A DNA stretch of 64,000 nt from Minisyncoccia bacterium. Lineage in GTDB: Bacteria > Patescibacteriota > Minisyncoccia > Phycocordibacterales > UBA9973. Made by a program: the position numbers and the translations under genes. Of this stretch, positions 9,115-23,100 are shown piece by piece. Location: positions 13,432-77,431 of the forward strand of contig CBFHKH010000001.1 in the NCBI GenBank assembly GCA_965656375.1, in the 5' to 3' direction. Position 1 is the first letter of the stretch. Each line of letters starts with the position of its first letter. Under the pieces are notes generated by a model, which worked only from the letters and a program-made list of their open reading frames with translations, ran no database searches and was not told the DNA's origin.

Positions 9115-9200
9115 CGCCACGAACTATATGTTTATAAAGTGTGGATAACCGTAATCTCTTTGTGTTGCTAAATATGCACATATCTGGGATACTAAAGTAT

Positions 9201-9860
9201 ATGAAAAAGTCACATATTAAATTCGCCTTAAAAAGTATTGGGATTTCGACACTAATAGTCACACTTTTTGTTCAAGTCCTATACGTTGCATTTGAACCAA
9301 CAACAGTTAAAGCTGCATCCGTTACAGATGCTATTCTTGTTACTTTGACAGTAGACTCCGGAATAGCAATCACATCACCAGCAGACTGTGCACTTACTCC
9401 AAATATCAGCATTACTGCAAATAGTGCAATATGCAGCTCAACATGGAATGTTAAGACAAACCATGCTACAGGGTACACACTTGCTATCAAAGCTCAAGCG
9501 TCACCAGCACTTGTAAGTGGAGGAAATAGTTTTGCCGACTATACGCCAGCTGTAGCAGGAACTCCAGAACTCTGGTCAGTAGGTTCAGGAGCTAAGGAGT
9601 TTGGTTACTCTGTATTTGGTACTGATTCATCTACTGCAACATGGGGTACGTCTCTTTCATGTGGAACATCAGGAACTCCTGCTGCTGCTCAGAAATATCG
9701 AGATACAACAACAAGTGATGTTACTGTAGCTACACGTGCTGTCCCTACTCCATTTGCAGGTATTGATACTACATTCTGTGGTGCAGCTGCTCAAAATGGT
9801 ATCTACGCTGCAGCAGGATCATACCAAGCGACTATAACTGCGACCGCAACTGAAATATAA
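9201..9860 (+). CDS. Secreted beta-rich surface protein, WxL-domain-like (paralog 1)
   Basis: Start chosen at the internal ATG, which precedes a signal peptide (KFALKSIGISTLIVTLF). W-x-V motifs STWNV / ELWSV are followed by GYTLAIKAQASPAL. The C-terminal strand AGSYQATITATATEI resembles the terminal WxL strand. It is paralogous to the 10871-11647 protein. Confidence 0.5.
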   Translation: MKKSHIKFALKSIGISTLIVTLFVQVLYVAFEPTTVKAASVTDAILVTLTVDSGIAITSPADCALTPNISITANSAICSSTWNVKTNHATGYTLAIKAQASPALVSGGNSFADYTPAVAGTPELWSVGSGAKEFGYSVFGTDSSTATWGTSLSCGTSGTPAAAQKYRDTTTSDVTVATRAVPTPFAGIDTTFCGAAAQNGIYAAAGSYQATITATATEI

Positions 9861-9882: not shown

Positions 9883-10860
9883 GTGAACTTACATACATAT
9901 AAAAAAATAGTTTTCTCAATTGGGGTATTTGCGCTTTTTTCAATAGCCGGAGGATTGATATACGCCGCTGAGAGGACAACCATAACAACTGAAGATTTCA
10001 ATGACTTCGTTGTAGAACCAGGTAGAACTGAAGTGCTTCTTGATCCTGGTCAGCATATTACAAAATACGTAAGTATTACGAACCGTATTAACAAAACTGT
10101 TAACTATGTTCTTACGAAAGAGGACTTAGTTGGAAGTAACGATCCTGATTCTCCGGTTAAACTTCTTGGTAATGAAACAGGACCATATTCTCTAAAAGAT
10201 TTTATAACTCCTGAGATAAATACTTTTAGCCTTAAATTCGGAGAGAAGATTACTATTGCTGTTGATATTTCAGTACCAGAGAAAGCTGAACCACGCGGAC
10301 ATTACGGCGCGCTTATCATTTCTACAACACCAAGTCTTAATGCAGATGGAACAGTCGCTGAAGAAGCAAAAGGAGGTGCACGTATTGTTTCGCGTATTGG
10401 CTCACTGTTTCTCGTTAAGGTAAATGGAGAGGGAAGACAAGAAGCATCGCTTCATGATTTTAAAACAATTGGTCCAAAGCGGTTAATTTTTAGCCATCCA
10501 CCAGAGGGTTTTGAAGTTGCACTTAAAAATACTGGTACGGTTCACCTTGTTCCGTACGGTACAGTAACAATTAAGAACATGGTAGGAAAGACTGTTGATA
10601 TACTACCGATAAATGCATATTTCTCACTTCCAGATTCAATACGATATATACAAACGCCGTGGGATAAAAAATTTGGTTTCGGCCGGTATACCGCTGATCT
10701 ATCGCTCTACCGTGGGTATGAGGGTGAAAACTTAGAATCGAAAATCGCCTTTTGGATTCTTCCATGGAAGATAATAATTCTTGCTATTGTCGTAATATTG
10801 ATCTTAGTTTCTATCTTCTATTATATTTCTACTCGATTTGAACTTAAAAAGAAAGGCTAA
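9883..10860 (+). CDS. DUF916/DUF3324-like cell-surface protein with an N-terminal signal peptide and a C-terminal TM anchor plus basic tail
   Basis: GTG start. The architecture is signal peptide, Ig-like region, second domain, then C-terminal anchor. The Ig-like region is FVVEPGRTEVLLDPGQ...YVSITNR...GHYGALI. The anchor FWILPWKIIILAIVVILILVSIFYYISTRFELKKKG is typical of WxL-locus CscA-type anchors. Confidence 0.5.
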   Translation: MNLHTYKKIVFSIGVFALFSIAGGLIYAAERTTITTEDFNDFVVEPGRTEVLLDPGQHITKYVSITNRINKTVNYVLTKEDLVGSNDPDSPVKLLGNETGPYSLKDFITPEINTFSLKFGEKITIAVDISVPEKAEPRGHYGALIISTTPSLNADGTVAEEAKGGARIVSRIGSLFLVKVNGEGRQEASLHDFKTIGPKRLIFSHPPEGFEVALKNTGTVHLVPYGTVTIKNMVGKTVDILPINAYFSLPDSIRYIQTPWDKKFGFGRYTADLSLYRGYEGENLESKIAFWILPWKIIILAIVVILILVSIFYYISTRFELKKKG

Positions 10861-10870
10861 TTCTACTGTG

Positions 10871-11647
10871 ATGAGAGTGTATACCACTACTAAAAAAAGT
10901 ATTCGTTTTTACGTAATACTTTTTTTAGTAGCAAGCACTACTCTTATCCCATGTTTATCTGTAACTGCGTATGTCATGGGGAGTGGTGCGTATCAAATTC
11001 AATCTGATAGCATTAACGTCGGAGGACTCTCGTCAACATCTACAAACTATGGTCTCAATGATACGCAAGGAGAGGTAGGAACAGGCTACTCAAACAGTTC
11101 AAATTATTATATGCATGCCGGGTACTGGCAGATACAAGATAGTTATATATCAATTTCTTCACCTGCAGATATCGCACTCTCTTCTATCTCTGGACTTACT
11201 GGTGGCGGTTCAGAAGGAACTGCAGCATGGACTGTTATTACTGATAATGTGGCAGGATATTCAATGACGATACAGACGAGCACTACTCCAGCACTCAAAT
11301 CGACCTCCGATTCATTTGCAAACTACACACCGAGTGGTGGGAATCCTGATTATCTATTTACGAATGCATCAGCGAATTCTTCATTTGGGTTTTCACCAGA
11401 AGGTTCTGATGTAATTACTCGCTTCAAAGATAACGGTTCAGCATGTAATACTGGAACGTCCGAAACTAGCTCTCGCTGTTGGGATGGATTATCAACGAGC
11501 GCGGCAAATATTGCAGGAAGTAGTACCAGTAACCACCCAGGTGGCACGCCTACCACGGTTCGCTTCAGAGCTGAATCAGGAGCAACTCATATACAGACCG
11601 CTGGTGCGTACTCTGCGACTGTAACGGTAACAGCAACTACGCTATAA
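10871..11647 (+). CDS. Secreted beta-rich surface protein, WxL-domain-like (paralog 2)
   Basis: Internal ATG start with a signal peptide. Motifs AAWTV...GYSMTIQTSTTPAL and the C-terminal AGAYSATVTVTATTL parallel the 9201-9860 protein. Confidence 0.5.
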   Translation: MRVYTTTKKSIRFYVILFLVASTTLIPCLSVTAYVMGSGAYQIQSDSINVGGLSSTSTNYGLNDTQGEVGTGYSNSSNYYMHAGYWQIQDSYISISSPADIALSSISGLTGGGSEGTAAWTVITDNVAGYSMTIQTSTTPALKSTSDSFANYTPSGGNPDYLFTNASANSSFGFSPEGSDVITRFKDNGSACNTGTSETSSRCWDGLSTSAANIAGSSTSNHPGGTPTTVRFRAESGATHIQTAGAYSATVTVTATTL

Positions 11648-11654
11648 TACAGTA

Positions 11655-13604
11655 ATGAAATCTCTATACCGGACACTTCCTCTTTCTATAGTCATCCTTT
11701 TTGCCAGTATAAGCATTGCTTCTGCTGCAACGAGCACTTTCCCAGTACGTCTCAATGTCCAAGGATGTAACAATAACGGTATCTGTGAAGCAGTGCTCGG
11801 CGAAGACACTAGCAGTTGTCCAGCTGATTGCCATACAGGACCTCCTGGCGATGATGGTGGGGGTGGTGGAGGTTCTCCAAACTATTTTTATGACATACGA
11901 GTAACTCCGACGCAAACAGGTGCGTATTTTGATTGGAAGAGTCGATTTCCTGCACTCTCAACGCTCAAGTGGGGACTAACGACTGATTATGCGCTTGGCT
12001 CTACCCAAGAAACAATGTATTCTGCAACGCATACATCTTTTATTCAAAATTTACTAACTAATACTCGCTACTATTTTAAAATCGAAGGTCAAAATACTGA
12101 TCGTACTACAGTTCCAGCATATGTTAGTTTTTTTAATACCCTCCGCGTTCCTGATGATACACGACCGTCTCCTCCAACAGATTTTATAGCTACACCAAAC
12201 ATCGCTACGAATACCATCACTCTTACTTGGCACAATCCAACTGATTCTAATTTTAATTATGTACGTATAGTGAGAAACAGGGAGACAGGGAATACAAGTC
12301 CATTCCTTGGCCAGATTATATATGAGGGAAATCTTGAGTACGCAATAGATAGAGATATCTTTGTATTTACTCGATATTTTTATACTATTTTTGCCCGCAC
12401 AACAGAGGGCGAATTTTCTTCTGGTGTTGAAGCAAACGCTATGGTGAGTCCTATTTCTATTGATCAGTGTATCCTCAATCCGTCATCATGTGTGCCACCT
12501 CCGAATCCATGCACACTCAATCCATCATCATGTATTAATCCACCAGACCCATGTCTCTCAAATCCTTCGTTATGCACCACTCCACCTACAGATCCATGCC
12601 TAGCAGCTCCGTCACCATGCACTACAGAGCCTATCGATCTACCAGTTAAAGAAGTACCAAATATCGTAACCCTTACTCCGTCTATTGCTGTTGGTCTCAG
12701 TGTCTTACTCTCAACACTATCCGCATTGCTTTCAGGATCATTTGCATTTGGAGAAATAGGATTCTTACTCTTACGATTGTGGTCACTTCTCCTCATTGCA
12801 TTTGGACTCAAGAAACGTACTCCACCGTGGGGTGTCGTGTATGATAGCGTTACCAAGCAACCACTTGATCCGGCGTATGTCGTTCTTCTTGATAAGAATG
12901 GAAATGAAGTTGCAAGTTGTATTACAGATTTGGATGGACGATACGGATTCGTAGCAGAGCCTGGAGTCTATACAATCGTTGCTACCAAAACTAATTATTC
13001 ATTTCCATCTAGAAAGCTCCATGGCATGAGAGGGGATGAGCTCTATGGTAATTTATATTTTGGTCACGATATCGAAATTACAAAAAGTGGATCAATCATT
13101 GCAAGTAATATTCCGCTCGATCCTATTAACTTCGACTGGAACGAATTTGCGAAAAGAGATCAGCATCTTATGAAATTCTTCAATGCTCGAGATGTGTGGC
13201 TCGGTAGACTTTCAAACGTACTATTTTGGGCAGGGTCACTGTTCTCTGTATATGCAGTTATCGTGAGCCCTACAGGGTACAATATCGCAATTGTAGGACT
13301 TTCTCTTTTTGTATATATACTGCGAACTCTTGGATTGCAGAGTTATCCAAAAGGATCAATTTTTGAAGGTCTAACTAAGAATCCGCTTCCATTCTCAATC
13401 TTGCGCGTCTACGGGGAAGGTAGTACAAACGAACTCTATCACAAAGTTGCTGATCGAACAGGTAGATATTATGCAATTGTGCCAAATGGTAAATATCGAG
13501 CTATAATTGAAAAGAAAAATGCCGATGAATCATATACAAAGATTCCAGTTTCTGAACCTGTTTCAGTAACCAGAGGCTATCTCAAAAAGAATTTTAAGAT
13601 CTAA
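11655..13604 (+). CDS. Polytopic membrane protein with a signal peptide, an FN3-like domain, a Cys-Pro-rich repeat linker, multiple TM helices and two carboxypeptidase-regulatory-like beta-sandwich domains
   Basis: The FN3-like region is PSPPTDF...TITLTWHNPTD...YVRIVR. There are six repeats of the form P-x-P-C-x-x-N-P-S-x-C. The hydrophobic stretches are LSVLLSTLSALLS and LLLRLWSLLLIAF. The CarbopepD_reg-like segments are GVVYDSVTKQPLDPAYVVLLDKNGNEV...DLDGRYGF and GRYYAIVPNGKYR. Confidence 0.55.
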   Translation: MKSLYRTLPLSIVILFASISIASAATSTFPVRLNVQGCNNNGICEAVLGEDTSSCPADCHTGPPGDDGGGGGGSPNYFYDIRVTPTQTGAYFDWKSRFPALSTLKWGLTTDYALGSTQETMYSATHTSFIQNLLTNTRYYFKIEGQNTDRTTVPAYVSFFNTLRVPDDTRPSPPTDFIATPNIATNTITLTWHNPTDSNFNYVRIVRNRETGNTSPFLGQIIYEGNLEYAIDRDIFVFTRYFYTIFARTTEGEFSSGVEANAMVSPISIDQCILNPSSCVPPPNPCTLNPSSCINPPDPCLSNPSLCTTPPTDPCLAAPSPCTTEPIDLPVKEVPNIVTLTPSIAVGLSVLLSTLSALLSGSFAFGEIGFLLLRLWSLLLIAFGLKKRTPPWGVVYDSVTKQPLDPAYVVLLDKNGNEVASCITDLDGRYGFVAEPGVYTIVATKTNYSFPSRKLHGMRGDELYGNLYFGHDIEITKSGSIIASNIPLDPINFDWNEFAKRDQHLMKFFNARDVWLGRLSNVLFWAGSLFSVYAVIVSPTGYNIAIVGLSLFVYILRTLGLQSYPKGSIFEGLTKNPLPFSILRVYGEGSTNELYHKVADRTGRYYAIVPNGKYRAIIEKKNADESYTKIPVSEPVSVTRGYLKKNFKI

Positions 13605-13692
13605 ATCACCCATATATCTACGTGTGGATAACTTAATCTTTTTATTAGCATAAAAAGATTATTTTAGCTATACTGTATATAGTTATTTTTGT

Positions 13693-13739
13693 TATATCGT
13701 CTATCCGATACACTCATTCTTTCTATATCGTCTATCCGA
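13693..13739 (+). promoter_or_regulatory. Two exact 16-nt direct repeats, tatatcgtctatccga, with starts 31 nt apart, upstream of the HTH / giant-protein operon. Candidate operator or promoter element.
   Basis: Repeats at 13693-13708 and 13724-13739 lie in the AT-rich 160-nt intergenic region before the ATG at 13765. Confidence 0.3.
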
Positions 13740-13764: not shown

Positions 13765-14121
13765 ATGGAATCTCTTAAAAAAATTATAAATTTAAGCGAA
13801 GCAGCAAAAATGAGCGGCTATACTCAAGACTATTTGGGCTATCTGATTCGCACGGGCGAGATGAAAGGCAAGAAGCTTGGTAGGAACTGGGTCACCACTC
13901 AGGAAGAACTCAATAATTACATTTTTAAGAGAAAAATTCGCCAAAATGAGCTCGCGTTAAACTATTTTGTCTCAAAGCGCCGTATCAAAAGTATCATCAC
14001 TATTTCTATTATCTTACTGATTATAGTCACCTCGATAGTGATGGTTTCTCAAAGCGAGAAAACTCCTGTCACGCTTCAAACTGAACTTTCGAATACGGTG
14101 GAAGCAACAACTACTAATTAA
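13765..14121 (+). CDS. Small excisionase/MerR-type HTH (HTH_17-like) DNA-binding protein with a C-terminal TM segment
   Basis: The HTH region LSEAAKMSGYTQDYLGYLIRTGEMKGKKLGRNWVTTQEEL matches the HTH_17 pattern. The C-terminus is hydrophobic (IITISIILLIIVTSIVMV). The stop codon is 2 nt before the giant gene's start. Confidence 0.5.
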   Translation: MESLKKIINLSEAAKMSGYTQDYLGYLIRTGEMKGKKLGRNWVTTQEELNNYIFKRKIRQNELALNYFVSKRRIKSIITISIILLIIVTSIVMVSQSEKTPVTLQTELSNTVEATTTN

Positions 14122-14123
14122 TA

Positions 14124-17100
14124 ATGGAATCTTTAATTAAAAACGTAAAAAAAACTGTTGTTAAAAAAAAGATCTCTGTAGTATTTCTTGTGCTACTCAT
14201 AGTTTTCTCAATCTCATACTCCGCTACGAACGCAGCATTTAATAAACAAATAAATTACCAAGGAAAACTTACAACATCTGTAGGGGTGGCTGTTGCAAAT
14301 GGAACATATAACATGGAGTTCAAACTCTATACTGTAAGTTCTGGTGGAACTGCTGTATGGACAGAAACAAGAACTGGTGCTGATAAAGTTCAAGTGACAA
14401 GCGGACTTTTCTCAGTACTTCTTGGTGAAGTAACATCACTCTCAGGAGTCGACTTCAATCAGACGCTTTATCTAGGAGTCAACATCGGAGGTACTGGTTC
14501 TCCAGCTTGGGATGGAGAAATGACTCCACGAAAAAAATTGGGTGCTGTACCTGCTGCAGTAGAAAGTGAACGGGTGGGTGGCTTTACACCTGCGCAATCA
14601 GCGAGTGGAAGTCAAATCCCAGTGCTCACATCTGATGCGATTATTTTAAGTGGTAGCGCAGCAGGCCTTACTGGCACATCTGCAAATGTTCTCAAGCTTC
14701 AAGGTGGATCGACGGGCGATATACAGTTTTTTGGAGCAACAAATAAAATTTCAAATGCTGGTATGCTTACACTTGCTGGAGGCATTACTGTCACGCCCTT
14801 CACTGCTGCAAACGGCGTCGTCTATGCCACAAGTTCTGGGGTACTTACACAAACTGCTGCATCATCCGGTGCATCATGTCTCATCTCAGCATCGGCTGGT
14901 GCTGCACCGACGTGGGGAGCGTGTACGGCTGGAGGATACTGGTCCCGTTCTGGAACCACAGTCAGTCCGAGTACAATTACCGATAAAGTAAATATCGGCA
15001 ATGCAACAGATCAGGGAAGTTACATATTGCAAGTCACCGGAGATCAGTACCTCGATGGAAAACTTCATCTAAAAAATACTGATATTCAAGAAATGGGAAC
15101 GCGATCCATTTCAATCGGGGCAGATATACCAAGTGTCACGGACAGCTTCTTTTTTGGACAAAATGCTGCAACTTCTGCAACTGGAGCGAGCAACTCAAAT
15201 TTTTTAGGTAACAACGCAGGATATACTGCTACGTATGCTCAAAACTCAAACTTTTTGGGCAATAGAGCAGGGTACGCTGCAACTTCTGCAAGTGGTTCAA
15301 ATTTCTTTGGTTATAGTGCTGGAGAAAGCGCATCCTCTGCAAGTGGTTCAAATTTTTTTGGTACTAGTGCTGGAAACGGAGCTACTAGCGCTGCCGAATC
15401 GAACTTCCTAGGCTCATATGCAGGCGGCAGTGCGTCGTCAGCTTCATTTTCAAACTTTTTAGGATACGCAGCCGGCTATCAGGCAACGAGCGCACTCCGC
15501 TCAAACTTTTTCGGTAATAGCGCAGGACAAGGTGCTTCAAATGCGTCGTATTCAAATTTTATAGGATACTTGGCTGGAAAAACTTTTTCGGGAAATAATG
15601 TCGGGTCAAACAATATAATCATCGGTACCAACATTTCTCTTCCAAATGCTGCTGCAAATTCCATCAATATCGGAGGAATCCTTTTTGGAACCGGTACCTA
15701 TGCAACTACGACAGGTAATGCATCGATTGTTCCAGTTGCGGCAGGAAATATTGGTATCGGCGTAGTATCCCCGACAGCTCGCCTTCATCTTGCAGCAGGT
15801 ACTGCCACTGCAAACACTGCTCCGCTTAAATTTACAACTGGTACGGCACTTACCACGCCTGAAGACGGATCAGTAGAATATCACAGCTCACACTTATACT
15901 TTACAATTGGTTCGACTCGATATCAGCTTGACCAACAAGCAGCCGGAGGAGGAGTGCATCTTGATCAGATAGCTGCAGCGCTTGCTTCTAATGGATCGGG
16001 TATTGATAACTTAAACTATGCACAAACCTGGAATTGGTCTACCGCTACAACTCAAACCCCACTCACACTCACTGCAAACGGTTTAACAACGGGAAGTATC
16101 CTCTCCCTTACTTCAAGTTCTGCTTCAGCAACAACTGGTCAGAAAGGATTGAATGTTGCACTTACTGGTGCACTCACTGGAGCACAGACAACCTATGGTG
16201 GATATTTCTCAAATGCTCGTACTGGTGCAAGTGCGGTTAATGTCGGTCTCTATGCAACTGCATCGGCAGCAGGTACAAACTATGCTGCAATCTTTGATCA
16301 AGGGAATGTGGGGATTGGGACGACGACACCTGCTTCTAAATTAGATATTGCGGGAACCATTACTACCAACGGAGACACTGTCTCAAATCTGGTAGCCACG
16401 GTGAGTAATATGAATGGCGGTACTCTATATGGTTCAAAGATTGCGCTCACTGCTGGAAGCGGTGCAGGTGCAGGTGGGGCGATTGTAGCAAATAACATCA
16501 GTACGACCTTGTCTGGAACTACCAACTTACCAAGTAGTATTGTTGGTTTGGCAACTCAGACTAATCACGGAGCGGCGTCAGGTACCCTCACAAACCAGGT
16601 TGAATATCAGACAGGACCTTCAGTGACAGGTGGTGCGACAACGACAACATTGCAGCATATCAGCTTGAGAGATGTCTTTACTTCAACAGGAGGTACGGTT
16701 ACCAACCAATACGGCCTGTACATCAATGGATTAACTGCCGCAGCTACTAACTACGGCATATATTTTGCAAACACACCCAATGGTGGCTCGATTACTTCTG
16801 GTGCTTCAACAGACATCGCAATTATACCTGGTGCTGGTGGCAACGTCGGTATAGGTGACACAACTCCAGCGTCACTCTTCACCGTCGGTTCAGGTGACCT
16901 ATTCCAGATCAACTCTTCTGGTAATGTCGCTGCTATAGGCGGCGCGGCACATACGATTGCAAATTCTTCTGGTGCACTCAGCATTGATGCTGCATCCTCA
17001 GGTGCCTTGAATTTGAACAACACAGGAACCGGCGACGTTCTCCTTGCAGGAGGTTCAGCAGCAACAGGTTGTACGGTTGCAAACTCAACTGGAAACCTCA

Positions 17101-20100
17101 CGTGTTCTGGTAACATCATCGGTGGAACTACTGGTACTATCGGCTACTGGGCACGTAACAATTCTACTTTTACCCTCACTCCTGCAACTGCAAACGACAT
17201 AATTTCAATTTCAACAAATTTAACCACTGCATCCAACAAAGCAATCGAAGGCCTCCAGACTGGCGCGACATCTGGCACGGACTACGCCGGCTATTTCTCA
17301 AACACTGGCGCAGCCACAACAAATGTTGGTTTGTATGCGACTGCAAGTGGAGGAACGAACAACTACGCAGCGATATTTGACCAAGGGAATGTTGGGATTG
17401 GGACAACGACACCAAATGCTTCATATGAATTACAAATAGGAAATGGTTCAGGGTCAGCTACAGGGCGAATCCTTCTTAGTGGAAATGGTGATGATGAACA
17501 TATAATGTTTGCTAATAGTGGAGGTAACCGCTTTCGGATTGGTCAAAACGGAACGGTTCTTGGCTTCGTAAGCCAAGGAACTGGTGTTGGAGGTGTCGGG
17601 CAGTCATTCTTATTTACTGGTGGTACTCCTGATACGAGTCACCAAGGTTCCTTGTTTAAGATAAGTGGTACATTTAATCAGGCAGCACAGGTAACTGATG
17701 GCTTGCTTGTAAATATTACTAACACTGCTTCAGCTGCTGGTTCGAGTCTTGCTAATTTCCAAATCGGAGGCTCTTCAAAATTCTTTATTGATGCCAATAA
17801 CGGCAACGTCGGTATCGGGACGGCAACACCAGGACAAAAATTACAAGTTGAAGGTGATGTTAGTATCACTCGTTCATCGTTTTCTAGTACTCATCAAATT
17901 CAAATAAACAATGGAGGTAATACTATCGGTATCGGTTTTAATTCACCTGTCTCAACTCTCGACATTATTGGTTCAAGTGGAAGCCAGGCATACATTGTTT
18001 CTAATAATGCTGCGCTTAATGTCGGTAACCGCTCAACGGGACCAATTAATTTTGTCACACAGAGCGCTTCAGGAACAAAATGGCAAATAACTTCAGCTGG
18101 TAACTTTATTACTGGTGCTGACAACAGTTACGATATAGGAGCAAGTGGTGCAACAAGACCTAGAACTGGATATTTCGGTAGCACTGTCGTTGTAGGTGCA
18201 TCTCAAATTAAAACACTCTCATCAACAGGCTATTATGTGGCTACGAGGGGTTCATTGCAAAATCCATCTGATGGTGTTTGGCTAATTACTGATGCAGCTG
18301 AAACAAGTTTCGGTCGCCTTCAACTTGGCGGGACTACATCTAGTTTCCCAGCAATCAAGCGAAACGGTACAGCAATAAACTTCAGGCTCGCTGATGACTC
18401 GGCCGACACTACAATCACCGCATCTGGCGCGACGCTCTCGACAGCTCCGACTACTTCTGCGGGAAGTTACGACATCATCACTCGAAACTCTTCAACTGGA
18501 GTATTAGAAAAAATATCTAGCACTGCTATGCCAGGTGGATCAGGTACCACAAACTATGTTGCTCGTTGGACGGGAACAAATACACTTGGCACTGGAGTAC
18601 TCTATGATAACAATACAAGTGTTGCTATTAGTGATACATCGACTGATAGTGTCGGGGCAAAATTATTCGTTAATGGTGCAATCTCGGCAGTAGGAACTAT
18701 CAGATCATTTGCTGCGAAAGATACTTATAATGTTGCTATCAGTTCAAACAGTATCAATGCCTATAACTATACTAACCCTAGCGGCCAAGGACTCAGTATT
18801 TTGAATGTGAGTACGGGGAATCTCGCTTTAGTAGGCGGAGGCGGAAACGTTGGCATCGGCAATGCTTCCCCATCGGGACTTCTCTCGCTCGCTGGCAACC
18901 GTACTGCTTTAGCGTGGGGCACAACAGGTATTAATTTTCAGACTGCTGCAGCGACTTACACTGACAGTTCGTCTTCAGGAACAGTTGCAAGCGTAGTTGC
19001 AAATTCTTTTGGAGTTCCAACATTCGCAGCATCATCAGCGACGACATACACTGCTGCATCAAATGTCTACATCGCTGGAGCACCAAGTGCTGGGACTAAT
19101 GTCACGATCACAAAAGGATACGCGCTTGATGTTAATGGTCCAACAAGAATAAAAACAAACTCTGGAAGCGCAACAGGACTAACGCTCACAAGTACTGGAA
19201 CTATAAACTGGAGATTTGGAAATGTGGCGACAAATGATTTTGGTCTATTTGCTCCAACAAGTGCAGGTGGAGAAGTTGCACTCCTTAACTTTACAGATTA
19301 TACCGACGCTTCTGTGCCAGTTTTGAGATTTGGAGGAGGTATTGCTGCATATGGATTCAATCCATATTGGGGCATTAATACAACGGGTGCAGGTACAAAC
19401 TATAGTAGTGATTTTGTTGTGAAGTCTTTTGGATCAACTCATGTGACTTCGGTTTCTAATTCCTCGAATGTACTTACACAGTGGGTTAATAGTAATGGTG
19501 ATGGATACTTTGCAGGCAACGTAGGTATTGCGAATACAAGTCCGACAGCGAAGCTTGATATAACATCGACCCAGACAGCGACAGCGAACAGCCAAGTGCT
19601 CGGAGTCAATCTAACAGGAACACTTACTGCACGTGCTACTGCGTCAGATACGCTCTATTCGATGCGCAACACTCAAGTATTAACTGCTGCGGCGAACAAT
19701 CAAAATCTTGTCGGATTGTCTATTGCTCCTACTTATTCTTTAGGAGCTTTTACTGGAACAACTATGTTCCCCCTTGATGTTGTAGGCTCTGCAGGCGCAA
19801 GAGTTAGAGTCAAAGCATTATCAAACGGCAATGTTGAATTACAAGTAGGTGATCCTACAGGAGGTGGCAATGGTGGCAATATAAGATGGTTACGTCCTTC
19901 TGGTGGCGCAGATGGACCAACAATATCTTTCGGTAATGCTGACTTAGCTTTCGATAATCCAGGTTATGGAGGATTTGTATTTACCGCTACTTTAGGAGCT
20001 TCTATGTCTGTATTAAAATTAACAAATACTCCTTATGCAGCAGGTACAGCTACAACTAATCATCCATTATTTTATAGAAATGGCGGTACAGCACCGACGA

Positions 20101-23100
20101 CATGGAGTACAGCCGGTACGTACGACGGATGGAACGCGGTATCTGGATTTACTGGGAACTTCTTGGATGCTCACGTAAACGGAGGAGCGAGTGTCTTCAG
20201 TGTCGACTACACTGGCAAGGTCAATGGCTCAGGGGCGAATTTCTCTGGTCTCACCGCATCATCTGCTGTCTATACAGACGGTTCAAAAAATCTCACCTCA
20301 AGCGCGCCAAGTTCTGGCACCATCGGTTACTGGGCGCGAACTGGAACTCAACTTTCACCTGCATCAATTGGTGACGAAGTAAATATTGGAAATACAACTG
20401 ATCAAGGTGCGTATACACTTCAGAATACAGGGAACTTTTATAATAGTGGCTCAATCGTACAAGTCAGTCCAAGCTTCACAGGTACTCACACCATTGCGTT
20501 TAGTGCTAACAATCAAATAACTTTTACAAATAGTGGAATCGGTGCGTACATGGTAGTAGGAGCAGGTAACTTTGTTGACTTCCAGGGGCAGTCAGTTAGA
20601 TCTACTGGTCGTGGATATATTGCGGGCTCAACAGTAGCAGGAACTTCTCCATTTTCTATAAGCACTGTTCCGGCACAATCATCTGGTACGACTGATAACA
20701 ACTCAATATCAATTACTCAGACGATAAACAACACTGGAACATATTCTGGAGTGTATCGAGGATTTTACTACAATCCGACACTTACATCCCTCACTGGTAC
20801 GACACATCGAGCAATTGAAACGGTAACAGGCGATGTAATCTTAGGTAGTACTAGTGGTAATGTTGGAATCGGGAACCCTACTCCTTTTAGCGGTGCAACT
20901 GTCGCACCATCACTAGAAATCGGAACAACAGGCACAGCAAGTGGTAACCTTATTGTTCGAGGATTTTCAGCACTTGGCAGTACACAAGCTAACGGTTTTG
21001 GTGCGGTTGGTTCAAACTACTATTTGGATTCTTCTAATGCTATACGCAGAAAAAATGGAGATTTCGTATCTGTCCTTGAGTTTCCATCAGGAGGATTTGC
21101 ATTCAAAACATCAGGGAATGGGGCAGCTAACTCTAGTGTGTCACTAACAACTCTCTGGAATATTGCAGCAAGTGGAAATATTACCGCTGGTACTGATAAT
21201 GCATATGATATCGGCGCAAGTGGAGCGAACCGAGCAAGGGACTTCTTTTTAGGAAGAGATGCGGTAATAGGTAGGAACTTTACTATTACAAACGGAAATA
21301 TAAATGCAACGAGTTCTCTCACATCTATAGCAGGTTCAGGTAACGGAAATCTATTTACAACAAATCATACAGTCAATACTTCAGCCTCATATCTTGGTAC
21401 GAACTTCCTTTCAAATGTATCCACTGCTTCAGGTGCCGGTGGAACTGTTGTTGCCCAGCAAGCAACAGTAAACTACTCTGCAACAGCAAATCATATTTCA
21501 GGTATAACTGGGTATCAAATTGATGTTAATCATACGGGTAGTGGAACATTATCGTCTGTATCAGGATTGGTTTCTCAAGGATTTGTTGGAAACAGTGCAA
21601 CAGTATCAAATTATTATGCATTTAAAACACTCGGATTGTTTACCCCGGCGACAGGTGCGGTCACTACTCAGTACGGATACTATTATGACCAAGCATATAT
21701 CACACCTGGTATAGGCTACGCATTTTATTCAAAAGTAAATCCGTCAGGAGGAACACTTGCATCTGCTGCTTCAACTGCTATTAGTATTATCCCTGGTAAT
21801 AGTATTATTCAGATTGGAGGTCAAACCTCCTCATTTCCAGCGTTAAAGCGAAACGGTACGGCAATAAACTTCAGATTGGCGGACGATTCTGCAGATGCGG
21901 CGATCACTGCTTCTGGTGCTACATTCTCTGGCCTTGGAGGTGGGGGTACTCAATGTGTGCAGACAAACAATACGGGAGTACTCTCGGCAGCAGCGTGTGG
22001 TGGAGGTGCGACTCGTCTCGATCAAATCACTGCTGCAACAGGAACTAACAGTATCGACTCGCTCAACTTCGATCAAACATGGAATTGGTCCACTGCTTCT
22101 ACCAGCAGTCCAATGACGCTCACTGCAAACGCTCTTTCGAGTGGCTCACTTCTCACACTTTCTTCAAATAGTACACAGGCAAGTGGAGGTAGCCAGTCAT
22201 TATTGAAAATTGATCTTTCAGGTGCGAATGCAAATACTGGAGAATCTACTTTTGGTGCTAATATATCGAACGGTCACACTGGGACTTCGGGAACTAATTA
22301 TGGAGTAAATTCTATTGCGTACGGTGGGGATACTAATTACGGTTTGTATGCTAGTGGATCTGGAAACGGAACTCAGAATATCGGTGTTGGCGCTGATGCG
22401 TATACTACTAACAATGCTACGGAAAATATTGGACTCATGGCTACTGCTTCAGGAGGTCTGCTAAATTACGCTATCATTGTCCCTCCTACCTACGGTAATG
22501 TTGGTATCGGAAATAGTGCTCCAGGAAGTTTACTTACTGTAGGTTCATCATCACAGTTTAGTGTCACCTCTGCTGGTGTAACCACTATTACTGCATCAAG
22601 TTCCAGTGCATTTACTGTTGCAAAGACTGGAACTAATTATGCGCTCCAAGTTGATACATCAACCGGTTCTGCGGTAACAGGGCTCAAGATTAAAAATAAC
22701 GCAGCCACCGGTGGTGTAGCACTCTCAGCTATTTCTTCAGGTACCAATGAATTCCTCACACTCGACGCAAAAGGAACAGGTGAAGTTCGTATTGGTGGTA
22801 TCTCTACGGGCGACGTTCTCCTTGCAGGAGGTTCAGCAGCAACAGGTTGTACGGTTGCAAACTCAACTGGAAATCTGACCTGTTCCGGCAACATCATCGG
22901 TGGAACTACTGGTACTATCGGCTACTGGTCTCGCTCAGGTACTACACTTACTCCTGCAACAGGAAATGATATCCTCTCAATCCCAACTACAAATACATCT
23001 GGTGCAGACCTTGCAATCACAAACACTGGTGCATATACAGGTACAGGAATATTCAATCTCACTGCAAACTCAGCAACGACGGGTACACTTGCGAGTATTT

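What the first reader, a model, noticed from the sequence alone, without database searches (positions are those of the whole stretch)
11655..13604. Unusual polytopic protein combining FN3, a (P-x-P-C-x-x-N-P-S-x-C)x6 Cys-Pro linker and two carboxypeptidase-regulatory-like domains
After the signal peptide there is an FN3-like domain and then six near-regular Cys/Pro repeats (CVPPPNPCTLNPSSCINPPDPCLSNPSLCTTPPTDPCLAAPSPCTT). At least 5 hydrophobic helices are interleaved with two CarbopepD_reg-like beta-sandwich domains. It is the fourth gene of the surface cluster and ends at a hairpin before the HTH / giant operon. It may anchor or organise the WxL-like complex or the fiber.
Basis: partly seen in the sequence, partly recalled or inferred. 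Interest (0 to 1): 0.5.

Follow-up and report, generated by a model that had tools for sequence, protein, structure and literature searches.

The report
Surface FN3 protein with modular anchor
This is a cell-surface protein of an uncultivated ultra-small (Patescibacteria) bacterium: its outer half belongs to a conserved gene cassette that also encodes a giant fibre, and its inner half is a large membrane-anchor module, absent as a unit from the libraries searched here, that hundreds of different surface proteins of this lineage share.

Summary
It has a cleavable signal peptide, a 4-Cys knot and two FN3 domains (not one). A Cys/Pro stalk follows, with 8 Cys at a 7-residue period, i.e. four C-x6-C loops alternating with PPxxP spacers. 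Four hydrophobic helices form two tight pairs, interleaved with two beta-sandwiches. The first sandwich passes Pfam's CarboxypepD_reg cut-off; the second is only fold-level.

The protein is a chimera.
- The ectodomain is the cassette-specific part. In 73 complete orthologues, g2+g3 lie upstream in 39/41 loci and a giant fibre gene lies downstream in 44/49. However, 66/73 end in a plain single TM plus basic tail.
- The last ~310 aa are a swappable module found only at the extreme C-terminus of at least 846 protein clusters. All 80 listed genome hits are Patescibacteria. The heads it carries are unrelated (VWA, RCC1, NHL, Sortilin/BNR, up to 3040 aa).
- No Pfam, NCBIfam or PDB entry covers the module as a unit.

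Which side of the membrane its beta-sandwiches face is unresolved. Charge bias and cysteine parity point to the cytoplasm; helix count and AlphaFold point outside.

The parts
11655..13604 (+). Gene 4: 649-aa surface protein (the finding)
   Evidence: ORF. An identical protein, P0001, lies on an 840,184-bp NCBI contig.
11655..11726 (+). Signal peptide, aa 1-24 (K2, R6, hydrophobic core, ASA|AT)
   Evidence: Hydropathy; helix 2-19; cleavage motif read directly.
11760..11834 (+). 4-Cys motif GCNNNGICE-x10-CPADC (C38, C44, C55, C59), followed by a Gly run (aa 61-74)
   Evidence: C, N, E, P and D are nearly invariant in gene-4 orthologues (alignment A3). The motif is present in 10 of 251 module proteins. 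AF2 confidence is low.
11877..12149 (+). FN3 domain 1, aa 75-165
   Evidence: AF2 pLDDT 91-95. Foldseek matches tandem FN3 structures, prob 1.0. No Pfam hit.
12168..12440 (+). FN3 domain 2, aa 172-262
   Evidence: Pfam fn3 at 22.2 bits, below the cut-off of 25. AF2 beta-sandwich with Foldseek match to tandem FN3.
12468..12620 (+). Cys/Pro stalk, aa 272-322: 8 Cys at a period of 7, as four C-x6-C loops alternating with PPxxP spacers
   Evidence: Cys positions. Conserved in orthologues, and similar stalks in 50 of 245 family members. Paralogue P0062 in the same genome carries a longer one.
12672..12809 (+). Helix pair 1, aa 340-385. Helix 1 is weakly hydrophobic, with small-xxx-small motif in the family. 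Then a turn with conserved E367, then helix 2 with R374 and W376, followed by KKR (386-388)
12810..13136 (+). KKR plus beta-sandwich 1 (CarboxypepD_reg, aa 393-449) with a conserved extension (DELY, NIPxDP, FDWNEF) to aa 494
13137..13208 (+). Basic amphipathic helix and linker, aa 495-518 (family mean 6.4 K+R)
13209..13334 (+). Helix pair 2, aa 519-560 (uncharged SPTG turn); length is 42 aa in 241 of 249 homologues
13335..13601 (+). Beta-sandwich 2, aa 561-649, at the extreme C-terminus
   Evidence: All-beta, pLDDT 89-96. No Pfam hit here; sub-threshold CarboxypepD_reg (27-29 bits) in homologues. One conserved unpaired Cys at position 607 in 91 of 120 homologues, Ala in this protein.
13634..13661 (+). 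A+T-rich hairpin with a perfect 12-bp stem, after the stop codon
   Evidence: -11 kcal/mol, z = -3.8. Not called by the terminator scan.
9141..9860 (+). g1: secreted 239-aa protein, paralogue of g3
   Evidence: 32% identity to g3. Synteny. No Pfam or PDB hit.
9883..10860 (+). g2: 325-aa protein with N-terminal signal and C-terminal TM plus basic tail; WxLIP (DUF916)-like
   Evidence: WxLIP_PGBD at 13.4 bits here. Orthologues reach 30.1 and 27.5 bits against a cut-off of 27.3.
10838..11647 (+). g3: secreted 269-aa protein, paralogue of g1
13765..14121 (+). Small HTH protein (118 aa) with a C-terminal hydrophobic helix
   Evidence: HTH_17 at 18.3 bits, sub-threshold. Hydrophobic segment at aa 73 onward. 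Present in 36 of 49 related loci.
14124..25289 (+). Giant 3721-aa fibre-like protein with an N-terminal signal/anchor and a Peptidase_S74 intramolecular-chaperone domain at aa 3493-3544
   Evidence: 32 bits, above the cut-off of 22. A relative lies downstream of gene-4 orthologues in 44 of 49 loci.

Best explanation
Gene 4 is the membrane-tethered FN3 subunit of a conserved six-gene surface cassette: g1, g2 (WxLIP-like), g3, gene 4, a small HTH gene, and a giant fibre with a Peptidase_S74 chaperone domain.

**How it is built**
- The signal peptide is cleaved.
- A small 4-Cys knot and two FN3 domains are displayed outside the cell.
- They sit on a short rigid stalk of four disulfide-stapled C-x6-C loops separated by polyproline spacers.
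- In most relatives this ectodomain is held by one ordinary transmembrane helix with a short basic cytoplasmic tail.
- In this lineage, that helix, together with a third beta-rich domain found in the plain-anchor orthologues inspected, has been replaced by a stalk plus a ~310-aa C-terminal module.

**The module**
- Layout: helix pair, CarboxypepD_reg beta-sandwich, basic amphipathic helix, helix pair, second beta-sandwich.
- It is the general C-terminal membrane anchor of surface proteins in Paceibacteria-type Patescibacteria.
- The head is variable and interchangeable; the module is conserved.

**Shown**
- The domain anatomy.
- That the protein is a chimera.
- The synteny of the ectodomain with the cassette.
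- The spread of the module and its strictly C-terminal position.

**Inferred**
- That the protein organises or anchors the cassette's secreted proteins or the fibre.
- That the Cys pairs form disulfides.
- What the module does beyond holding the protein in the membrane.

**Sidedness.** I lean slightly (about 55:45) to the two beta-sandwiches lying on the cytoplasmic face, with an odd number of true spans in helix pair 1. On that reading the module links variable outside heads to a conserved inside surface. This point is not settled.
For: **Anatomy**
-.

**Chimera**
- All 120 closest hits and the best 150 cluster representatives match only the last ~310 aa, always at their own C-terminus.
- Only about 9 proteins (P0001-P0009) share the ectodomain by its 4-Cys motif; one search confirmed the homology for P0002-P0007 and P0009.

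**The ectodomain is the cassette part**
- Of 73 complete orthologues found with the ectodomain alone, 66 end in a single TM plus basic tail (median 14 aa, 6 K/R) and 5 carry the module.
- g2+g3 lie upstream in 39/41 loci, a giant-like gene downstream in 44/49, and the HTH gene in 36/49. The same order is seen in L001 and L003.

**The module is a general anchor**
- 846 clusters at E<=1e-30, from proteins of 328-3040 aa.
- Heads include VWA, RCC1, NHL, Sortilin/BNR, DUF285, GLUG and Ig.
- 460 loci in species-representative genomes; all 80 listed are Patescibacteria.
- A second copy (P0062) lies in the same genome.

**Link to fibres beyond this cassette**
- A fibre-like gene directly abuts the module gene in 21 of 80 genome loci (examples).

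**The module seems to have been acquired more than once**
- The module of this protein is 48-54% identical to modules on unrelated heads.
- It is only 35-39% identical to the module on the other gene-4 lineage, the P0017 group.

**For the cytoplasmic lean**
- Family-mean K+R is 0.02 and 0.22 in the two helix turns. It is 3.8, 6.4 and 3.3 in the flanks next to the beta-sandwiches.
- Neighbouring cassette proteins obey positive-inside, with basic tails after the C-terminal TMs.
- Ectodomains have an even number of Cys in 221 of 249 members. The module has a single Cys in 152 of 249, located in sandwich 2.
- Helix 1 is weakly hydrophobic (mean KD 1.36, against 1.89 for helix 2).
Against: - No direct evidence that gene 4 touches g1-g3 or the fibre. 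Synteny is the only link.
- The module could do more than anchor. 310 conserved residues with about 30 invariant positions is a lot for a passive anchor.

**Against the cytoplasmic lean**
- AlphaFold models four helices as two tight hairpins (pTM 0.75). With the N-terminus outside, that puts both sandwiches outside.
- Helix 1 has a conserved GxxxGxxxS-type motif and a nearly fixed length, as expected of a real span.
- In a few members helix pair 1 is shrunk to about 28 weakly hydrophobic residues. This is easiest to tolerate if both ends lie on the same side.
- No dedicated topology predictor could be run.
Confidence: 0.6

Rival explanations
1. All-outside pedestal. Both helix pairs are true hairpins (4 spans), so both beta-sandwiches sit on the outer face of the membrane at the foot of the stalk. 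There the module acts as a conserved collar that binds an invariant envelope component (peptidoglycan, lipid head groups or S-layer) and holds variable heads on the surface.
For: - AF2 predicts four helices in two tight pairs at pTM 0.75.
- Helix lengths are fixed, and helix 1 carries a small-xxx-small motif.
- The fold's neighbours are surface or cell-wall proteins: SdrD, pilins, SleC, SlaB, NOMO.
- Degenerate helix pair 1 in P0112 and P0141.
- Long translocated loops are known to be less bound by the positive-inside rule (general knowledge; Andersson and von Heijne).
Against: - The charge bias is inverted and extreme. K+R is about 13.6 in the flanks beside the sandwiches against 0.24 in the supposed cytoplasmic turns, one of which carries a conserved Glu.
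- A near-invariant KKR would have to be translocated directly after helix 2.
- Sandwich 2 has a conserved unpaired Cys, in a family whose ectodomains have paired Cys.
- K+R content is 10-13.5% in the sandwiches against 3.9% in the heads.
Confidence: 0.27
2. The module is a C-terminal sorting or processing signal rather than a permanent anchor, by analogy with LPXTG/sortase, PEP-CTERM/exosortase or the type IX CTD. It would be recognised by a dedicated machine and removed or exchanged after export.
For: - Lineage-wide and strictly C-terminal.
- Preceded by a Pro-, Gly- or Cys-rich spacer.
- Attached to very diverse cargo with N-terminal signal peptides.
- It ends in a beta-sandwich of about 85 aa, as type IX CTDs do.
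Against: - It is ten times larger than known tripartite sorting signals.
- No LPXTG-like motif (read directly).
- No match to any sorting-signal or type IX CTD model at E<=1.
- No conserved neighbouring protease or sortase gene appeared in the loci inspected.
- Gene-4 orthologues function with a plain TM instead.
Confidence: 0.08
3. The cassette is a prophage remnant, and gene 4 is a phage tail or receptor-binding accessory protein.
For: - The giant protein carries the Peptidase_S74 tail-fibre chaperone domain.
- The small HTH protein weakly resembles excisionases.
Against: - No PHROG family matches g1, g2, g3, gene 4 or the giant.
- The flanks are housekeeping genes: rpsP and trmD upstream, rpoB and rpoC downstream.
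- All cassette proteins carry signal peptides or membrane anchors.
- Integrase, capsid, portal and terminase genes were not searched for.
Confidence: 0.03

Closest known systems
WxL / Csc cell-surface complex gene clusters of Firmicutes (CscA = DUF916/WxLIP, CscB and CscC = WxL proteins, CscD = small LPXTG protein)
   Same: A co-directional cluster with two paralogous secreted proteins, one protein with a WxLIP_PGBD-like domain and a C-terminal TM (g2), and one further envelope-anchored protein in fourth position.
   Different: - g1 and g3 hit no WxL model.
- The anchored partner is a TM protein with FN3 domains, not an LPXTG peptide.
- The cluster continues into an HTH gene and a giant S74 fibre.
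- The organism is a Patescibacterium.
Carboxypeptidase regulatory-like / transthyretin-like beta-sandwich (Pfam PF13620, clan Transthyretin)
   Different: - Here two such domains are threaded between two pairs of membrane helices at a protein's extreme C-terminus.
- Sandwich 1 has a conserved ~45-aa extension (DELY, NIPxDP, FDWNEF).
- No peptidase is attached.
Lineage-wide C-terminal anchoring or sorting signatures (LPXTG/sortase, PEP-CTERM/exosortase, PGF-CTERM/archaeosortase, type IX secretion CTD)
   Same: One conserved C-terminal element on many unrelated secreted proteins of a lineage, preceded by a low-complexity spacer.
   Different: - About 310 aa with four helices and two folded domains, instead of motif + TM + basic tail or a single ~80-aa sandwich.
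- No evidence of cleavage or of a partner enzyme.
- No model match.
Type I (single-pass) surface proteins with a basic cytoplasmic tail: the ordinary form of gene 4
   Same: Same signal peptide, 4-Cys motif, FN3 pair and cassette position.
   Different: The window protein has the stalk plus module in place of a third beta-rich domain (seen in the three plain-anchor orthologues inspected), one TM and a ~14-aa tail.
Membrane stalks that carry beta-sandwich domains: Sulfolobus S-layer anchor SlaB, NOMO of the BOS complex
   Different: The match covers one domain only. Those proteins have one TM helix, no interleaved helix pairs, and no sequence similarity.
Phage tail fibres and endosialidases with a C-terminal intramolecular chaperone (Peptidase_S74): the neighbouring giant gene
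   Same: The S74 domain is present in the giant and in fibre-like genes beside other module genes.
   Different: It is encoded in a cellular housekeeping context with a signal/anchor sequence, and has no PHROG matches.

Membership tests
Fibronectin type III (Pfam PF00041) | Sequence score at or above Pfam's gathering score (25 bits) | tested here: not met
   22.2 bits for aa 172-251. Nothing for aa 75-165.
Fibronectin type III (Pfam PF00041) | Seven-strand FN3 beta-sandwich fold, here as a tandem pair | tested here: met
   AF2 model. Foldseek prob 1.0 and E 1e-5 to 1e-4 over about 195 columns to NCAM2, neogenin, DCC and fibronectin FN3 pairs.
CarboxypepD_reg (Pfam PF13620) | Score at or above the gathering score (32.3 bits): first sandwich | tested here: met
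CarboxypepD_reg (Pfam PF13620) | Score at or above the gathering score: second sandwich (aa 561-649) | tested here: not met
   No hit in this protein. The homologous domain of 2 of 9 relatives scores 27.3 and 28.9 bits, below the cut-off. All-beta fold at high pLDDT.
WxL / Csc surface-complex cluster | A DUF916/WxLIP_PGBD protein with a C-terminal TM in the cluster | tested here: inconclusive
   Window g2 scores 13.4 bits, below the cut-off of 27.3. Orthologues score 30.1 and 27.5 bits (2 of 10 pass), and 5 more are sub-threshold over the whole model.
WxL / Csc surface-complex cluster | Proteins with a WxL domain | tested here: not met
   g1, g3 and 10 orthologues have no WxL hit at E<=0.1. 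A profile of 50 sequences finds nothing in the PDB.
WxL / Csc surface-complex cluster | Small LPXTG-anchored partner (CscD) | tested here: not met
   Gene 4 has no LPXTG motif and ends in a beta-sandwich (read directly). Orthologues end in a TM plus basic tail.
Sortase / exosortase-type C-terminal sorting signals | Short motif + single hydrophobic helix + basic tail at the extreme C-terminus | tested here: not met
   The C-terminus is ...GYLKKNFKI at the end of a folded domain. No NCBIfam sorting-signal model hit at E<=1.
Type IX secretion C-terminal domain | Match to the CTD models; a diderm host with type IX secretion genes | tested here: not met
   No Pfam or NCBIfam hit at E<=1. The host lineage is Patescibacteria. 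Presence of type IX genes was not examined.
Patescibacterial C-terminal anchor module (family delimited here) | Colinear ~310-aa match (helix pair, sandwich, helix pair, sandwich) ending at the protein's C-terminus | tested here: met
   All 120 hits and the 150 best cluster representatives. The query aligns end to end.
Patescibacterial C-terminal anchor module (family delimited here) | Family-invariant residues (W392 G393 V395 Y396 T400 K401 P403 P406 ... D494 W495 N496 K500; R374, W376, KKR 386-388) | tested here: met
   The query departs from the consensus at N361/P362, P372 and C607 (it has G/S, L and A).
Peptidase_S74 fibre (neighbouring giant gene) | Intramolecular chaperone domain at or above the gathering score (22 bits) | tested here: met
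   32 bits, aa 3493-3544 of the 3721-aa protein.

The most novel reading that the evidence does not exclude
The C-terminal module is an undescribed, lineage-wide transmembrane device of Paceibacteria-type Patescibacteria. It would have three true spans that place two transthyretin-like domains and a basic amphipathic helix on the cytoplasmic face. Hundreds of unrelated surface heads (adhesin-like propellers, VWA domains, FN3 proteins, multi-thousand-residue giants) would then be physically coupled to one conserved intracellular surface. That coupling could serve sorting, positioning at the host-contact site, or outside-in signalling. In scope it would be comparable to LPXTG/sortase or the type IX CTD, but built on a different principle.
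Probability: 0.3. Interest if true: 0.75.

Novelty: new variant of a known kind. Interest (0 to 1): 0.55.

Why it matters
Patescibacteria are thought to live attached to other cells, and their surface proteins are the obvious interface, yet almost none has been characterised.

- **A shared handle.** The conserved ~310-aa C-terminal module sits on at least 846 protein clusters with unrelated heads. It gives a simple sequence handle for cataloguing the surface proteome of a large uncultivated lineage.
- **A pointer to function.** It also points to a common, still unknown way of holding or handling those proteins.
- **A natural experiment.** In this gene the same cassette-specific FN3 ectodomain occurs with a plain TM anchor in most relatives and with the module in a few. 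That shows the module can substitute for a simple anchor.
- **A testable question.** If the beta-sandwiches prove cytoplasmic, this would be an unusual location for a mostly extracytoplasmic fold and would imply a new kind of surface-to-cytoplasm coupling. That question becomes testable with ordinary reporter fusions.
- **A structural motif.** The disulfide-loop/polyproline stalk recurs across the family and has no library match here.

Tried and rejected
**Searches that found nothing**
- Four literature searches (Patescibacteria, Parcubacteria or CPR combined with carboxypeptidase regulatory-like, CarboxypepD_reg, giant or surface proteins) found nothing on this module or cassette.
- The PDB sequence search with the module gave only a marginal SdrD hit. 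The search with a g1/g3 profile gave nothing.
- PHROGs gave only a marginal excisionase-type hit for the HTH protein, so the prophage idea was rejected.
- NCBIfam gave no meaningful hit for any cassette protein.
- The cluster look-up gave no names or accessions for P0001 or P0062.

**Tools unavailable or unproductive**
- The afdb50 fold library was not available.
- The context look-up for paralogue P0062 was not on record.
- The terminator scan found no site. The hairpin was found by reading the sequence and folding it.
- Tandem Repeats Finder found no DNA repeat under the Cys/Pro stalk, so the stalk is a protein-level periodicity and not a recent DNA duplication.

**Attempts to settle the sidedness of the sandwiches**
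- K+R composition of window proteins separates most surface proteins (3-5%) from cytoplasmic proteins (12-18%). However, g2 and two other exported proteins are K/R-rich, so the test is only suggestive.
- A position-independent insertion free-energy sum gives marginal values for all four helices.
- Members with a shortened helix pair 1 can be read either way.

**Idea rejected**
- The protein as a regulator of a carboxypeptidase. No peptidase domain is present in the protein or the cassette; only the fold name suggests it.
Full report

The ORF is there: 11655-13604, plus strand, ATG start, 649 aa.

- **Signal peptide.** The N-terminus is a textbook Sec signal peptide with K2/R6, a hydrophobic core and ASA|AT (read directly).
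- **FN3.** Pfam reports CarboxypepD_reg at aa 393-449 above its gathering score (38.9 against 32.3 bits). It reports fn3 at aa 172-251 just below its own (22.2 against 25). An AlphaFold2 model built on 120 homologues shows two beta-sandwiches in the N-terminal half, at aa 75-165 (pLDDT 91-95) and aa 172-250 (pLDDT about 50-70). Foldseek aligns the pair to solved tandem FN3 structures with probability 1.0. There are therefore two FN3 domains.
- **Cys/Pro stalk.** The cysteines lie at 272, 279, 286, 293, 300, 307, 315 and 322. Read directly, the stretch is four C-x6-C loops (C-x-x-N-P-S-x-C) separated by x-P-P-x-x-P spacers. That is eight Cys at a period of seven, not six copies of an 11-mer. 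There is no DNA tandem repeat underneath. The pattern is conserved in orthologues, and similar Cys runs precede the same module in 50 of 245 relatives.
- **Hydrophobic helices.** Besides the signal peptide there are four, in two tight pairs: 340-360 with 365-385, and 519-538 with 542-560.
- **Second sandwich.** aa 561-649 has no Pfam hit in this protein. The same domain scores only 27-29 bits in relatives, but it is confidently all-beta.
- **Hairpin.** A perfect 12-bp A+T-rich hairpin follows the stop codon (13634-13661; -11 kcal/mol, z = -3.8).

The description is confirmed with small corrections.

**2. The protein is a chimera of two unrelated evolutionary units.**

A search of 5.8 billion proteins gave more than 900 hits. 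Apart from a handful of orthologues, they match only the C-terminal half. Mapping the matches shows that the last ~310 aa (from about aa 335) align colinearly in all 120 listed proteins, and always end at the protein's own C-terminus. I call this part the module.

An exhaustive HMMER scan of 1.84 billion cluster representatives found:
- 846 clusters at E<=1e-30;
- the same strictly C-terminal position in the 150 best;
- host proteins of 328 to 3040 aa.

The N-terminal parts are unrelated to one another. They include GWINF-type repeats, VWA, Ig-like, RCC1 propellers, NHL repeats, Sortilin/BNR, DUF285 and GLUG. A scan of one genome per prokaryotic species found 460 loci. All 80 listed are Patescibacteria, under the labels Paceibacteria, Nomurabacteria, Parcubacteria and Minisyncoccia. 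The genome of this window has at least one more copy, P0062. It has a different head and an even longer Cys/Pro stalk.

**3. The ectodomain, not the module, belongs to the gene cluster.**

Close and medium-distance orthologues keep the order g1, g2, g3, gene 4, HTH, giant (L001 and L003).

In three further loci, gene 4 has the same 4-Cys motif and FN3 pair but ends in one TM helix and a short basic tail. I therefore searched metagenomes with an alignment of the ectodomain alone. The results were:

| Feature | Count |
|---|---|
| Complete gene-4 orthologues | 73 |
| ...ending in a single TM plus basic tail (median 14 aa, 6 K/R) | 66 |
| ...carrying the module | 5 |
| g2+g3 upstream, where the contig reaches far enough | 39 of 41 |
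| Giant-fibre-like gene downstream | 44 of 49 |
| Small HTH gene | 36 of 49 |

So the FN3 protein is a constant member of a six-gene cassette, and the module is an alternative to a plain anchor.

The module on this protein is 48-54% identical to modules on unrelated heads. It is only 35-39% identical to the module carried by the other gene-4 lineage, the P0017 group. This suggests more than one acquisition; that is an inference.

**4. What the cassette is.**

- **g2** has a signal peptide, a C-terminal TM with basic tail, and a WxLIP_PGBD-like domain. The domain is weak here (13.4 bits). It is above the cut-off in 2 of 10 orthologues and sub-threshold over the whole model in 5 more.
- **g1 and g3** are paralogues (32% identity). 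They have no match in Pfam or in the PDB.
- **The giant** (3721 aa) has an N-terminal signal/anchor and a Peptidase_S74 intramolecular chaperone domain at aa 3493-3544, as in trimeric phage fibres.
- **Prophage reading.** No PHROG family matches g1-g3, gene 4 or the giant, and the flanks are housekeeping genes. A prophage reading is therefore unlikely.

The resemblance to the Firmicute WxL/Csc clusters is real for g2 and for the overall layout, but it is not shown for g1 and g3.

Independently of this cassette, a fibre-like gene directly abuts a module gene in 21 of 80 genome loci, 17 upstream and 4 downstream (example L004). Module proteins and fibres are therefore recurrent operon partners.

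**5. How it most likely works.**

*Shown:* export signal, outside-type ectodomain, stalk, membrane helices, conserved module, and synteny.

*Inferred:* the protein stands in the membrane with the 4-Cys knot and FN3 pair held away from the bilayer by a short rigid stalk. It serves as the tethered subunit that organises or anchors the secreted cassette proteins and/or the fibre.

Evidence that the stalk cysteines are probably disulfide-bonded:
- Across the family, the parts N-terminal of the module have an even number of Cys in 221 members, an odd number in 15, and none in 13.
- That is the signature of a compartment where Cys are paired.

**6. The open question: which side do the two beta-sandwiches face?**

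For the cytoplasm:
- The two helix turns are almost free of K/R (family means 0.02 and 0.22), and turn 1 carries a conserved Glu.
- The flanks beside the sandwiches carry 3.8 (the near-invariant KKR), 6.4 and 3.3 K/R.
- The positive-inside rule visibly holds for the other membrane proteins of the cassette.
- The module usually has exactly one Cys (152 of 249 members), at position 607 inside sandwich 2. This contrasts with the paired Cys of the heads.
- The sandwiches have 10-13.5% K+R against 3.9% in the heads.
- Helix 1 is the least hydrophobic (mean KD 1.36 against 1.89) and the least conserved.

For the outside:
- AlphaFold packs four helices as two hairpins at pTM 0.75. With an exported N-terminus, that puts everything outside.
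- Helix 1 has a conserved G345-x3-G349-x3-S/G motif and a nearly fixed length.
- The fold is mostly extracytoplasmic.
- A few members have helix pair 1 shrunk to about 28 weakly hydrophobic residues.
- Composition is not decisive, because g2 and two other exported proteins of the window are also K/R-rich.

I put the cytoplasmic arrangement at about 55% and the all-outside arrangement at about 45%, and I treat this as unresolved.

**7. Comparison with what is known.**

- The parts are known folds: FN3 and transthyretin-like/CarboxypepD_reg.
- The cassette resembles WxL/Csc clusters only partly.
- The module behaves like the lineage-wide C-terminal signatures of other bacteria (LPXTG, PEP-CTERM, type IX CTD), in being a single conserved C-terminal element on diverse exported cargo behind a low-complexity spacer.
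- It fails every defining feature of those systems that could be tested. It has no short motif + TM + tail, no model match and no sign of a partner enzyme.
- It is an order of magnitude larger than those signals.

I file the finding as a new variant of a known kind: a membrane-anchored surface protein with an undescribed anchor module.

**8. Verdict.**

Synteny backs the link to the cluster and the fibre, but the polytopic part is generic rather than cluster-specific, and no contact was shown.

Interest is moderate (0.55). The single gene is an ordinary member of its family. The family-wide module, the swap between a plain TM and the module, and the unresolved and possibly cytoplasmic position of a normally extracellular fold are all worth following up.

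Noticed in passing
window 13677-13738: Two tandem copies of a 31-nt unit (81% identical), each ending in TATATCGTCTATCCG. They lie between the hairpin after gene 4 and the start of the HTH gene, and could be an operator or promoter element for the HTH/giant pair.
   Followed up: partly
window 13765-14121: The small HTH protein (118 aa, HTH_17/excisionase-like, sub-threshold) has a C-terminal hydrophobic helix, so it would be membrane-tethered. It is conserved directly upstream of the giant gene in 36 of 49 related loci.
   Followed up: partly
window 25116-25184 (giant protein aa 3665-3687): A Cys-bounded ~23-aa motif, CPNIxGxQxxxPxxMxxxxxxxC, sits in the tail of the giant protein, beyond the Peptidase_S74 domain. 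The same motif occurs in 15 of 251 module proteins, up to 6 tandem copies (P0065). It has no library match.
   Followed up: partly
window 11760-11834 (gene 4 aa 36-60): The 4-Cys motif CNNNxICE-x(4-9)-CPxDC is nearly invariant at the N-terminus of gene-4 orthologues. It also heads an unrelated module protein (P0184). It looks like a small disulfide knot of unknown role; AF2 confidence is low.
   Followed up: partly
window 9141-9860 and 10838-11647: g1 and g3 are paralogues (32% identity) with a shared consensus: an N-terminal S-x-x-Y-x-I-x-x-D-S motif and a C-terminal SGxYTATITATAxTL. They match nothing in Pfam, NCBIfam, PHROGs or PDB sequences. The listed GTG/TTG starts are probably too far upstream; internal ATG codons lie just before the hydrophobic signal segments.
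   Followed up: partly
family position equivalent to gene 4 aa 607 (window 13473-13475): 91 of 120 homologues have a single, unpaired Cys at this position inside the second beta-sandwich. This protein has Ala there, and a lone Cys at 422 instead.
   Followed up: partly
L004 (7413-11752) and L005 (9248-13515): In other genomes a module gene sits at a fixed housekeeping position, between a short Peptidase_M50 gene and rpsL-rpsG-fusA. In L004 a Peptidase_S74 fibre gene lies immediately upstream.
   Followed up: no
P0112, P0141, P0212, P0213 (module proteins): This sub-group has the first helix pair reduced to about 28 weakly hydrophobic residues (...SLALLGAAGMLISTSSESWRSLLSLSAIRKRKPWG...). The rest of the module is intact, which bears on the topology question.
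   Followed up: partly
L069 8337-9797; L118 and L157: In some loci the g3-like protein and the FN3 protein are fused into one ORF, or g3-like ORFs are much longer. This is a hint that g3 and gene 4 act together.
   Followed up: no
window 10838-10860: As listed, the g3 ORF overlaps the end of g2 by 23 nt. Gene 4 starts 8 nt after g3 ends. The tight spacing suggests that g2 to gene 4 are translated from one transcript.
   Followed up: no
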